Positions 630 through 12,817 of a stretch of 64,000 bases of DNA are shown in pieces. The notes beneath the pieces are model-generated. The model ran no database searches, was not told where the DNA came from, and was given only the letters and a program-made list of their open reading frames with translations. The stretch spans positions 14,235,140-14,299,139 of the forward strand of contig JAUZTB010000068.1 of NCBI GenBank assembly GCA_034780895.1, in the 5' to 3' direction. How positions within the stretch are numbered: position 1 is the first letter of the stretch; each line of letters starts with the position of its first letter. This stretch comes from Rhynchobatus australiae. Lineage: Eukaryota. The translations under genes and the position numbers were made by a program.

Positions 630-1432
630 TCAAATGAATTTGGAAATGGTATTATAATAGGCTGTATTCACATCTGCCAACACAGAAACAAGATCAGTTT
701 CAGCAGTGTCATTGCTCCCAGAGACCTTCTCGTTCAGTAGATGCCCAAGTGGATCAGCCCAGGAGTCATTGTTCAGGTACTGGTCAAACTCATTGCGATC
801 CACATCAGCCAGCAGGTCAGAGTAGCACAGATTGTCCAGGATTTCCATGTCATTCTCTGGTTGCATAGTTTGAGAGGTCTGAATGCAACATTGGGTCAAG
901 TTCTCATGCAATAGAGAGGGTTCTGCCATTTTGTGACAACAAAATGTATCGCGAGGAGGCGGCGCTGGGGTCATTTGATAGGATTGGCTGCAGTACAGCC
1001 TAGCATCAGGCTGAGGAAGTCCATAAACTGGATGAGATATTGGACAGTCTATTCCTGTCAGCCCACTCTGTGTTTCTGCTGTGCACTGTGGTTGAGTCAT
1101 TTGTGTGCTGGTTATTGGAGGGCATTTCTCTGAGGGGAGAATTTCCTGCTTGCTGGGTGAGTTTAGTTCTGGGAGAGGGTGTGGGTGGGCAATCTGATCC
1201 ATTGCCTGTTTGCTGATGGGAAATTTCTTGTCTTGACGAACAGTTGATTCCTGTTGCTCAATGCTCTCCACGTGAATGGAAACACCATTCCTGTATGGGC
1301 CACGGGTTTGGCTTTTCCGTCGTGGCCTGTATTTGTAGTTGGGGTATTCCAACATGTGCTCCACTCGCAGCCTCTCTGCTTCTAAAATGTACGGTCGCTT
1401 CTGCACCACAGTGAGGGATCTCCAACAGCGCC
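630..1432 (-). CDS. sox7-like: SoxF gene coding exon 2 (second half of the HMG box, transactivation region, C-terminal SoxF motifs)
   Basis: Acceptor CCTTCCAG|GG with AG at 1434-1433. Encodes [23 protein letters not shown], the SoxF beta-catenin-binding motif DRNEFDQYL (774-800) and the Sox7-type tail [17 protein letters not shown]. Confidence 0.93.
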
Positions 1433-10400: not shown

Positions 10401-12817
10401 ATACGTTCATCTTAGTTCTATTTGTACCAGTTTGTGAAAGCCAGAATGATAGTTAACCTGTTAGTCTGGAGAAGGTGACCACATAACTGAGAGATGAGAG
10501 ACAAGAGACTGCAGATGCTGGAATCTGGAGCAACGCACAAAATGCTGGAGGAACTCAGCAGGTCAGGCAGCAACTATAGAGAGAAATGGACAGTCGATAT
10601 TTTGGGTTGAGATCCTTCATCTTTACTGAAGATTCATATCATAGACACTGCCTGACCTGTTGAGTTCCTTCAGCATTTTGTGTTTTGCTCCAGATTCCTG
10701 AACCTGCAGTCTCTTGTGACTCCATTTTGCTGCTCCACTGTGAAGTCCCTTCAAGGTATGCCCACTTTGAAGTTTTCCTCCTCTCTTTGATGGGAACTCT
10801 GAGACCCTCTCTCACTGCTCCCCCTCTGTGACCACATAATTGAGCCTGATGCCTAGTCTTGTGTACTGATAGTTTTTATTATTATTATACAGCAAATTAG
10901 AATTGGCCACAAAGTGGGGAGGTGAGATTGGAGGTGGGGTGGTTGTAGCAGTGGTGGGGAAGTGATTGCTGACTCTTCTCACTATTCCAAGGGGCTGAAG
11001 ATGTGTGTGCATTGCAACTGCCAAGTACGTGTGGATCATCTATTTCAAAGATGGCTGGGAGCATTGAACTAAACTATTCACTGCCTTAACTGACTGAGGC
11101 ACCAGTGGGCTCCTTTGCTGAGAGAGTATTAATGTAGCTATTTCAGTGTAAATTATGATTGCATCAAAATTCAACCAACAGAGAAATGAGAGTCCTAATG
11201 CCAATAAGGGACTAGAATTTTCAAGGATGTCAGCCATGGTTCAGTAGGTTGCATACTTGTTCTGGCTTCAGAGGGTCATGGATTCAAATCCCATGCTGGA
11301 AACTTGAGCATGTAAGAGTGGTGCATTGTCAAATTGCTGCATTTCAATGAGACATTAAACCAAAGTTCTTAATGCCCTCCCAGTTGGATATGTTGGTCTC
11401 TATTTGACTGTTGAAGGACATGAGAATTCTTCTCAGTGTTCTGACTAATATCAATCCTTTAACTAATCACTGAGACAGATTACCTGGTCTTAATCACATT
11501 GCTCTTTGAGGGATCTTGCTGAATGTAAATTGACTTTGCATTTCCTACAGATTTGTATTTCAGAAGTAATTACATCATATTATAACTTGGGACATTATTA
11601 ATGTTTAATTAATTAACACATTCGGAGGTTCTACAAAGTGTCATGGATATGCATGTTCTTTTATTGACTTTTAGCAATGATGCTTATTGGTACATAAACT
11701 CACATTTCCATTTGTGTAATGCAGAACTGCAAACACAAATGCGCACGTGAAGATATATGGGCAGCTGTTCATATACACACGTGCATTTATGCATGCATGT
11801 TTAAAAGAGTATGTTTGTCATGCTTGTGAACACTTATGTTACAGCACCTAGATACTAGAAGAAAAATACTCATTTTTCTTTGAAATTACATAAATTGAAC
11901 ATTAAAAAAATGGCAGAGACAGTATTCTATTCTGCAGGTTCTAAAGACTAACATTGCAGAAAATCTAAAAGTCTGGCTACTTTGAGTCACAGTTTTAGTA
12001 CAGCTAAAGTGTAGAATTCATAGAATCTTGCCATATAATAGTTACAATCAGGAGGAGGCCATTCATCCCATCAAGTCAACCCAGCTCCTCAAAGACCAAT
12101 CTTGTTAGCTCCATTCCCCCCCCCCCCATTCATTTCCTACAGCCCTGCAAATTGCTCTGCCTCATGTATTTCCATATATCTTCCCCATTTCCCCATAAAG
12201 TCTATGCTGGCTCTCAGAGCAATTGATTAATCCCATTCCCCTTGTATCTTATTCTCTCATGCATACTAATTAACACAGCAAAAATTCTCCCACAACCTCC
12301 CACACTACAGGTAATTTCCAATGGCTGATTAGTCTAAAACCAACACACATTAGAATCTAACAGTTCCATGTTCCATGATGCTGTTTCCAACACTCTCAAT
12401 GGATAGTGAGATGCAGATCTCTGTACATATATAAAAAAATCATTGCATACCCCTTGTACCTTTAGGACAAGAGGTTAATTCTATCCATGGTCCTTGAACT
12501 ATCCCCTAATAGAGAGTTAGAATTTCCCTCTATTGATACCATGTAAAACAATCCACCCCACAGTACAACATCAGGGTTGTTCCCCACTCTTCCAAATCCT
12601 TACCTAACAGTTTGCTGAGCTCTGTATTTTGAAGGTTGGGGTTCTGCAAAGATAATCTCTTCCTCTCATCTTTTGCCCACACCATGAAGGCATTCATTGG
12701 TCGGGGAATCCGGCTGATGGCTATAGGAGTCCTACAATCTCTTGGCTGGTCAGCTGGCTTGGGGGCATTCACATAGAAAGCACCAGCATCGATGTAGTCT
12801 GTAGCAGCCGCCCTCAT
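630..12817 (-). CDS. sox7-like: Two-exon SoxF-group HMG-box transcription factor (divergent Sox7-like), join(complement 12604..12817, 630..1432), 338 aa
   Basis: Splicing the two exons gives a complete HMG box: [77 protein letters not shown]. The intron falls in the Gly codon after LSKxL, the conserved SoxF intron position. 214 nt + 803 nt keeps the frame open to TGA at 630. Exact orthology (Sox7 versus another SoxF paralogue) is not established. Confidence 0.93.
1935..2350 (+). mobile_element. Decayed L2-clade LINE 3' fragment
   Basis: Translates [22 protein letters not shown], resembling the L2 AETLIHAFVTSRLDYxNALLxG motif. The same family occurs at 37110-37600. Confidence 0.6.
5140..5482 (-). 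mobile_element. Old V-SINE (tRNA-derived) copy
   Basis: gaaaccaaagtacc..aaactca..cagtcacaggga..ccacacagacag..caggattgaac..ccactgtgccacc is the degenerate reverse complement of the V-SINE at 35155. Confidence 0.6.
5780..6030 (-). mobile_element. Decayed RTE-clade LINE reverse transcriptase fragment
   Basis: The minus strand resembles the RT block 'EK..E...PL...F..L.KAF..V.R..LW', with frameshifts. Confidence 0.4.
7228..7432. repeat. Palindromic interspersed repeat (elasmobranch inverted-arm family)
   Basis: Left arm gcagaaaattctgga..cagcacctgtggaaagagaaacag; right arm agatgctgcctgacctgctgaatttttcca..ttccagcacctgc. Confidence 0.65.
8325..9000 (-). mobile_element. Decayed CR1-type LINE 3' fragments
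   Basis: Begins with the tail aagaacacaagaacataa, followed by 'cccatatcccttgattccctta' and 'tccagtgaactttgctg', typical of reverse-oriented CR1 3' ends. Confidence 0.5.
9165..9290 (+). mobile_element. Rex1/Babar-type LINE 3' fragment
   Basis: ggacatgccctcttct..ctaccat..gggaggaagtacagaagcccgaagacccacac..ttcagaaacagcttctt matches the copies at 29650-29930 and 41290-42190. Confidence 0.7.
10495..10725. repeat. Well-preserved palindromic (hairpin) interspersed repeat
   Basis: acaagagactgcagatgctggaatctggagcaac..aaatgctggaggaactcagcaggtcaggcag (10501-10570) is near-complementary to ctgcctgacctgttgagttccttcagcatttt..ttgctccagattcctgaacctgcagtctcttgt (10648-10717). Confidence 0.85.
11228..11660 (+). 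mobile_element. DeuSINE (SacSINE1/AmnSINE1-like) with tRNA-like head, intronic
   Basis: Head gtcagccatggttcagtaggt..ggattcaaatccc (A/B-box-like), then the Deu-type core cagattacctggtcttaatcacattgct..gggatcttgctg..aaattgac..catttcctaca. Confidence 0.65.
12604..12817 (-). CDS. sox7-like: SoxF gene coding exon 1 (N-terminus and first half of the HMG box)
   Basis: ATG at 12817 in GAGATGA context, with an in-frame TAA five codons upstream (12830-12832). Encodes [17 protein letters not shown], the SoxF signature. Donor TTAG|GTAAGG with GT at 12603-12602, phase 1. Confidence 0.93.

What the first reader, a model, noticed from the sequence alone, without database searches (positions are those of the whole stretch)
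630..12817. Divergent extra SoxF gene: Sox7-like tail, but an atypical HMG box and N-terminus
Seen: an intact 338-aa spliced ORF with the SoxF intron position, DRNEFDQYL and a Sox7-type LVSVLADxxxxYYN tail. Known: the HMG boxes of vertebrate Sox7, Sox17 and Sox18 are nearly invariant (RIRRPMNAF..[24 protein letters not shown]). Here normally fixed positions have changed ([35 protein letters not shown]). The N-terminus does not resemble the Sox7 MASLLG(A)YPW start as I recall it. Elasmobranch proteins usually evolve slowly, so this much divergence is unexpected for the true Sox7 orthologue. Inference: this is an additional, fast-evolving SoxF paralogue. It could be a retained fourth 2R ohnologue, a lineage-specific Sox7 duplicate or a sox32 relative. 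The HNA-to-xNT change parallels zebrafish Sox32 (LENTDLSKILG, recalled from memory), which is usually described as teleost-restricted.
Basis: partly seen in the sequence, partly recalled or inferred. Interest (0 to 1): 0.8.

Follow-up and report, generated by a model that had tools for sequence, protein, structure and literature searches.

The report
Fourth SoxF gene of cartilaginous fishes
This is a real, intact extra member of the SoxF developmental-regulator family that sharks, rays and chimaeras kept and bony vertebrates appear to have lost; it is already annotated and briefly noted in print, but its reshaped DNA-binding domain and its role seem unstudied.

Summary
In detail: a two-exon, 338-aa SoxF gene on the minus strand. 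It is not a diverged Sox7. Orthologues occur in 11 named sharks and rays plus the chimaera, and five of these species also show a canonical Sox7. Trees place the clade with Sox7 (94/88 to 97/93), though AU tests do not exclude Sox32 or Sox18. Contig lengths put it apart from Sox7, Sox17 and Sox18, mostly on a 37-65 Mb chromosome. Best reading: Sox7's sister from the jawed-vertebrate genome duplication, lost in bony vertebrates. A 2025 paper states this history in a few sentences (PMC12648240); I could not read its supplement to confirm the gene. The HMG box was remodelled early (19-23 of 77 differences from Sox7/17/18) and then froze (3 of 71 between ray and shark). It keeps 9 of 10 'invariant' DNA contacts (His29 is Gln), the POU-interface residues and the beta-catenin peptide, but lacks two central motifs. 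Only one HMG change is identical to Sox32's. No flanking gene was found, so microsynteny, dN/dS and expression are untested. Known in outline, uncharacterised; interest moderate.

The parts
12604..12817 (-). Coding exon 1: ATG, 34-aa N-terminus conserved in the clade, first half of the HMG box (12715-12604) with R4P, A22S, D27N, H29Q, A31T, M36L
1433..12603 (-). Single GT-AG phase-1 intron, 11,171 nt, inside the HMG box; holds three assembly gaps
630..1432 (-). Coding exon 2: second half of HMG box, linker, C-terminal motifs, stop
1314..1432 (-). Second half of HMG box: S40C, V53I, E54L, Q62E, Q65L changed; W41, E57, V61, M64, Y72 and the basic RPRRK tail kept
771..800 (-). [10 protein letters not shown], containing the SoxF beta-catenin-interacting peptide; predicted helix
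651..692 (-). C-terminal tail [14 protein letters not shown] with the Sox7-type four-residue spacing; predicted helix
497..502 (-). AATAAA, candidate polyadenylation signal about 130 nt after the stop
   Evidence: use not shown
13040..13065 (+). Perfect octamer ATGCAAAT 223 nt upstream of the ATG, followed 12 nt later by a CATTGT Sox-type site; candidate promoter element
   Evidence: function inferred only
13187..13194 (-). Second perfect octamer, 370 nt upstream of the ATG; candidate promoter element
   Evidence: function inferred only

Best explanation
What it is: a fourth SoxF gene, the sister of Sox7 from the second (jawed-vertebrate) whole-genome duplication, kept in sharks, rays and chimaeras and lost in bony vertebrates. 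Shown: a distinct, intact, chondrichthyan-wide clade that coexists with Sox7. Inferred: the 2R origin (about 0.8). How it works (inferred from conserved residues, about 0.8): the HMG box binds and bends Sox-type minor-groove sites; E57, V61 and M64 should keep the Sox17-like way of pairing with POU5/Oct factors; EFDQYLN should recruit beta-catenin, making it a Wnt-coupled activator. Nine clade-specific changes fixed or nearly fixed from chimaera to rays, plus His29Gln in most elasmobranchs, probably shift flanking-base preference and partner choice. Loss of the LPTP and LSPP motifs removes conserved regulatory sites of unknown use. Biological role (a guess, about 0.4): narrow expression in the early embryo (endoderm or germ line) downstream of a POU factor, rather than the broad endothelial role recalled for Sox7.
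For: Orthologues: 10 elasmobranch 'Sox-7-like' proteins at 53-84% identity, then a gap to about 31%; Narcine and Callorhinchus added by the profile. Canonical Sox7 also listed for Hypanus, Chiloscyllium, Scyliorhinus, Narcine, Callorhinchus. Trees: clade 100/100; clade+Sox7 94/88 (68 rows, 349 columns), 97/93, 95/93. Tail spacing of four residues in 11 of 13 clade members and 17 of 17 Sox7, 0 of 3 Sox17, 0 of 14 Sox18. Contig lengths: Heptranchias 45.0 Mb against Sox17 142.7 and Sox18 55.1; Mustelus 82.0 against Sox17 141.8; Hypanus 41.7 against Sox7 167.9; Narcine 179.7 against 254.6 for Sox7 and Sox18. Beta segments after 2R lose more genes and evolve faster (PMC10115646 passages). Same history stated in PMC12648240. 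Purifying selection: HMG 3 of 71 differences between ray and shark against 52-56% linker identity. Fold intact in the Mobula orthologue, rmsd 2.4 A to Sox17-DNA 3F27. Narrow expression hints: CpG-poor 5' region (o/e 0.24), two proximal octamers, 8 of 13 database models truncated or irregular.
Against: No flanking gene found in the window (600 of the 620 non-repeat ORFs of 42 aa or more scanned with Pfam), so paralogous synteny is untested. AU tests do not reject grouping with Sox32 (p 0.065-0.318) or Sox18 (p 0.091, 0.099); the stem branch is long (0.5-1.0). Part of the Sox7 likeness is probably ancestral: an invertebrate-type SoxF has a similar tail. Conserved-block trees nest the clade beside bony-vertebrate Sox7 (88/85, 97/91), not outside all Sox7. 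Contig lengths of multi-member clusters may come from another species, and no single species had all four genes listed. Truncated models may reflect real decay. No expression, binding or dN/dS data.
Confidence: 0.8

Rival explanations
1. Small-scale duplicate of Sox7 in stem gnathostomes or stem chondrichthyans that later moved to another chromosome.
For: Nearest to Sox7 in all trees; no microsynteny seen; a long branch could hide the true attachment.
Against: Grouping with chondrichthyan Sox7 rejected (AU p=0.030; one test on 126 columns). Small-chromosome location mirrors Sox18. Small-scale duplication of sox genes is described as rare in teleosts (PMC5524304 passage).
Confidence: 0.08
2. 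Hidden paralogy: this gene is the orthologue of bony-vertebrate Sox7 (or exchanged sequence with it), and shark 'Sox7' is the other copy.
For: Conserved-block trees join it to bony Sox7 at 88/85 and 97/91; 3 sites support this against 2 for Sox7 monophyly.
Against: The full alignment gives Sox7 monophyly 96/83 (only 59/31 with 24 rows). Monophyly is not rejected (p=0.067). Two of the three sites recur in Sox32-type and invertebrate-type proteins. Shark and bony Sox7 both lie on large contigs.
Confidence: 0.05
3. Chondrichthyan orthologue or relative of Sox32.
For: Shared A31T and a changed position 29; both lack the central motifs in most copies; AU tests do not reject the grouping.
Against: 34 of 77 HMG differences; position 29 is Gln against Glu; no tree joined them; the 6 Sox32-type proteins lack the LISVLAD tail; sox32 is consistently adjacent to sox17 whereas this gene is on another contig in Heptranchias and Mustelus.
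Confidence: 0.04
4. It is the true Sox7, diverged, or a decaying pseudogene.
For: Database name 'Sox-7-like'; 8 of 13 models irregular; the genome of this window could not be searched for its own Sox7.
Against: Canonical Sox7 coexists in 5 species with the orthologue; frame intact; HMG nearly frozen across a shark-skate split dated about 237 My (PMC11406177 passage).
Confidence: 0.03

Closest known systems
RefSeq 'transcription factor Sox-7-like' of elasmobranchs and Callorhinchus XP_007893190.1; second chondrichthyan Sox7-like copy of PMC12648240
   Same: Orthologous: 84% identical to Mobula, 81% Hypanus, 76% Amblyraja over the whole protein; 1-2 HMG differences.
   Different: Nothing beyond species divergence. 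Whether the paper's second copy is this gene could not be checked (supplement unreadable).
Sox7 (gnathostome)
   Same: Intron position, E32, Q48, M64, EFDQYLN, SVLAD tail with four-residue spacing.
   Different: 19-22 of 77 HMG differences, about 40% overall identity, no LPTP or LSPP motif (0 of 13 against 17 of 17), unrelated N-terminus, different contig.
Sox32 (ray-finned fishes)
   Same: A divergent extra SoxF with a changed HMG box and a retained beta-catenin peptide; A31T shared.
   Different: Sox32 is a tandem duplicate of sox17; 34 of 77 HMG differences; no Sox7-type tail.
Sox15, the divergent fourth SoxB1 ohnologue (PMC8244163, abstract only)
   Same: Same pattern: one of four ohnologues evolves asymmetrically and is lost repeatedly.
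   Different: Different Sox group; Sox15 survives in many bony vertebrates.

Membership tests
Sox (SRY-type HMG) family | Single HMG box with RPMNAF and three-helix fold | tested here: met
   Pfam PF00505; model of Mobula orthologue, helices 41-58, 64-77, 80-100, best matches Sox17/Sox18-DNA
Sox (SRY-type HMG) family | Ten DNA-contact residues described as invariant (PMC4856986) | tested here: inconclusive
   9 of 10 kept; His29 is Gln in 11 of 13 clade members, His in Heptranchias and Callorhinchus. Sox32-type proteins also change it, so the rule has exceptions.
SoxF group | HMG box closest to Sox7/17/18 | tested here: met
   70-75% identity, at or just below the 75-80% typical within a group; best PDB hits Sox17, Sox18; inside SoxF in all trees
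SoxF group | EF(D/E)QYL peptide | tested here: met
   11 of 13 clade members; Callorhinchus has one substitution, the Narcine model is chimeric
SoxF group | Intron inside the HMG box after SKML/SKLL | tested here: met
   same break in Sox7 models P0092, P0037
SoxF group | DNA binding and beta-catenin binding | not testable with these tools
   inferred from residues only
Sox7 orthologue | Near-invariant HMG box and central LPTP/LSPP motifs | tested here: not met
   19-22 differences; motifs 0 of 13
Sox7 orthologue | Only Sox7-like gene in the genome, at the Sox7 locus | tested here: not met
   canonical Sox7 on a different contig in 4 elasmobranchs and also present in Callorhinchus; the window's own genome not searchable
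Sox32 | Adjacent to sox17 | tested here: not met
   different contig lengths in Heptranchias and Mustelus
Sox32 | One clade with Sox32 | tested here: inconclusive
   never recovered; AU p 0.065, 0.135, 0.318
2R ohnologue of Sox7 | Duplication older than the chondrichthyan-osteichthyan split | tested here: met
   both recovered topologies imply it; chondrichthyan-only duplication AU p=0.030; modest strength
2R ohnologue of Sox7 | Separate chromosome from the other three SoxF genes | tested here: met
   contig lengths; pairwise, no species with all four listed
2R ohnologue of Sox7 | Paralogous flanking genes | not testable with these tools
   no neighbour in the window; no eukaryotic genome collection available

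The most novel reading that the evidence does not exclude
Cartilaginous fishes independently turned their spare SoxF ohnologue into a Sox32-like specialist: a POU5-driven, beta-catenin-coupled factor of early endoderm or germ line with a remodelled HMG box and altered DNA specificity (His29Gln at an 'invariant' contact), which bony vertebrates lost and ray-finned fishes re-created from Sox17.
Probability: 0.2. Interest if true: 0.75.

Novelty: already known. Interest (0 to 1): 0.38.

Why it matters
It completes the SoxF quartet and shows what the missing fourth copy became. The burst-then-freeze pattern of the HMG box suggests a function fixed before sharks and chimaeras split, and gives a natural variant of a DNA-contact residue described as invariant. 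It also warns that shark 'Sox7-like' labels cover two different genes. The existence and origin are already noted in print, so the value lies in the untested function, which catshark or skate embryos make testable.

Tried and rejected
Neighbour genes: Pfam on 600 of 620 non-repeat ORFs of 42 aa or more gave the two HMG halves, retroelement fragments and weak scattered hits below curated cut-offs (Ephrin E 0.005, MAP17 E 0.003), rejected after reading the frames. Splice-site exon scans showed nothing recognisable; tblastn of the first 122 stored proteins, including two PINX1-SOX7 fusions, hit nothing outside the gene. Shorter exons could be missed. Rfam and tRNA scans empty. Polypterus P0092 scored high only through a duplicated first exon. 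Teleost and sturgeon 'Sox-7-like' proteins fall inside bony Sox7. No bony-vertebrate member: among 370 stored proteins with a Sox HMG motif only the chondrichthyan clade had 5 or more of 9 signature residues, one SoxB-type protein had 4; this is absence from best-hit lists, not from genomes. Cluster membership and accessions could not be looked up. Chromosome numbers and expression: supplements of PMC12648240 and PMC11979771 unreadable; no 'sox7' in the searched parts of the PMC10115646 and PMC8455134 supplements (one file cut, 12 of 24 not searched); unhelpful. dN/dS impossible without orthologous DNA. No complex prediction was run. Rows left out of trees: 14 unnamed mammal-like representatives, 8 without a parsable HMG box, most invertebrate-type hits, and the tail of the chimeric Narcine model.
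Full report
Observation. The gene is as described. Exon 1 (12817-12604) and exon 2 (1432-630) join across an 11.2-kb GT-AG intron into 338 codons without an internal stop. Pfam finds half an HMG box in each exon.

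Orthologues. The exon-2 protein found 266 proteins among 977 candidates; the top 10 are elasmobranch 'Sox-7-like' entries (53-84% identity, 293-495 bits), followed by a drop to 110 bits for ordinary Sox7. A profile of these ten added Narcine and Callorhinchus XP_007893190.1. The chimaera protein carries all 9 signature residues scored, so the gene predates the holocephalan-elasmobranch split (about 400 My, recalled). The search of 50%-identity representatives added only an unnamed exon-1 read-through nearly identical to the skate protein. The window's protein is sister to Mobula and Hypanus, so the source is a ray. Canonical Sox7 is listed for Hypanus, Chiloscyllium, Scyliorhinus, Narcine and Callorhinchus, chondrichthyan Sox17 and Sox18. 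This makes four SoxF genes. I could not search the window's own genome.

Phylogeny. With 68 rows and 349 columns the clade has 100/100, Sox7 96/83, and the two together 94/88. With conserved blocks only, clade+Sox7 has 97/93 and 95/93, but the clade nests beside bony-vertebrate Sox7 at 88/85 and 97/91; three sites drive this against two for Sox7 monophyly. AU tests on 126 columns: with chondrichthyan Sox7 p=0.030, with Sox17 0.041, with Sox32 0.065, Sox7 monophyly 0.067, with Sox18 0.091; repeats gave Sox32 0.318 and 0.135, Sox18 0.099. So trees favour Sox7 but do not exclude Sox32 or Sox18. 32 of the 68 rows were unnamed; their labels (Sox32, cyclostome, outgroup and most Sox17/18) are my inference from sequence, the Sox32 label partly from the substitutions described in PMC12648240. 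An independent character agrees with Sox7: four residues between the tail Asp and the aromatic pair in 11 of 13 clade members and 17 of 17 Sox7, against 0 of 17 Sox17/Sox18.

Location. No neighbouring gene was found in the window. The protein searches report contig lengths. The gene lies on 36.9, 40.7, 41.7, 45.0, 47.9, 51.7 and 65.1 Mb contigs in seven clusters and on larger ones in Mustelus, Carcharodon, Narcine and the catshark (82-314 Mb; catshark chromosome 1 is described as a likely fusion, PMC11979771 passages). Sox7 and Sox17 lie on 138-255 Mb contigs in elasmobranchs; Sox18 on 38-70 Mb contigs in five clusters and larger ones in three. In every species where a pair could be compared the new gene was on a different contig; multi-member clusters make some values uncertain. 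This fits two large-plus-small pairs, Sox17/Sox18 and Sox7/this gene, the pattern of alpha and beta segments after 2R, where beta segments lose more genes and evolve faster (PMC10115646 passages and SI Table 3). I could not tie the contig to a chromosome number.

Anatomy. Using standard HMG numbering, the window's box differs from Sox7, Sox17 and Sox18 at 19-23 of 77 positions and from a Sox32-type protein at 34. Clade-specific and fixed or nearly fixed: R4P, A22S, D27N, A31T, M36L, S40C, V53I, Q62E, Q65L; also E54L (His in chimaera). Between ray and shark the box differs at 3 of 71 positions (Sox7 0-2, Sox18 1-2), while the region behind it keeps 52-56% identity (Sox7 79-82%, Sox18 76-82%). 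That is an early burst followed by purifying selection. Of ten DNA contacts called invariant across Sox paralogues (PMC4856986 passage) nine are kept; His29 is Gln in 11 of 13 members. E57 and M64 (PMC3367189 passages) and V61 (bioRxiv 2022.09.23.509242 passages), which govern pairing with Oct4, are Sox17-like. EFDQYLN, needed for Sox32 activity and bound by beta-catenin in Xenopus Sox17, is intact. LPTP and LSPP, present in 34 of 34 and 33 of 34 named Sox7/17/18, are absent from all 13. R4P removes a basic residue of the N-terminal nuclear-localisation signal (recalled). A model of the Mobula orthologue has a confident HMG box (pLDDT about 90), a disordered linker and low-confidence helices at both C-terminal motifs; it matches Sox17-DNA at 2.4 A.

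Mechanism. Shown: intact gene, conserved clade, retained residues. Inferred: a Sox-motif-binding, beta-catenin-coupled activator able to pair with POU5, with shifted flanking specificity or partners. Guessed: narrow early-embryo or germ-line expression. The hints are a CpG-poor 5' end, two perfect octamers 223 and 370 nt upstream (2 of 16 sites of the wider pattern in 400 nt, binomial p 0.005; the only one of 840 letter permutations with two; chosen after the fact, and the octamer is enriched window-wide, 12 against 5.1 expected), and 8 of 13 irregular database models, as expected when transcripts are scarce but also if the gene decays in places.

What is known. PMC12648240 (section 6 part 1, sections 8 and 29 and passages read; supplement unreadable) states that a Sox7-like gene duplicated in the gnathostome ancestor, one copy was lost in Osteichthyes and Chondrichthyes kept both. 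PMC5524304 (passages) does not mention it. I found no study of its sequence, synteny or expression in searches for soxf/shark/sox7/sox32, sox7-like+cartilaginous, soxf/ohnolog/elasmobranch, sox gene family+Callorhinchus, sox-7-like+shark, catshark/sox17/endoderm and sox7b+shark; the library lacks most subscription papers.

Verdict. A real fourth SoxF gene, most likely the 2R sister of Sox7 (0.8). It works like a SoxF factor and files under SoxF, but is neither Sox7 nor, probably, Sox32. Existence known, function open. Interest 0.38.

Noticed in passing
window 13040-13194: Two identical 11-mers containing a perfect octamer upstream of the ATG, one near-palindromic and followed by a Sox-type site; four more octamer-like sites to 16062, some probably in retroelement remnants.
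   Followed up: partly
window 24684-25529 (-): 282-codon open frame with no Pfam match; broken frames on the opposite strand; possibly a decayed repeat. Unexplained.
   Followed up: partly
window 15453-15743, 18916-19065, 21664-22404; also 42837-43205, 44134-44637: LINE-type retroelement remnants: RVT_1 and ALKBH8_N-type Pfam hits for the first three, the last two judged by eye.
   Followed up: no
P0006, P0007, P0010, P0011, P0012: Five shark models start at the Met inside the HMG box; annotation artefact or lost start codon.
   Followed up: no
P0222 (unnamed, cyclostome-like SoxF), P0233, P0251: Pro at HMG position 4 also occurs in these unrelated SoxF proteins, so R4P has arisen more than once.
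   Followed up: partly
HMG positions 52 and 67: The clade shares Tyr52 and Tyr67 with bony-vertebrate Sox7, while shark Sox7 has the Phe and His of Sox17/18.
   Followed up: partly
P0115 and P0366 (Narcine): Sox7 and Sox18 report the same 254.6 Mb contig, suggesting a chromosome fusion in this electric ray.
   Followed up: no
window 12818-64000: No recognisable protein-coding gene in 51 kb upstream; possibly a regulatory gene desert.
   Followed up: partly
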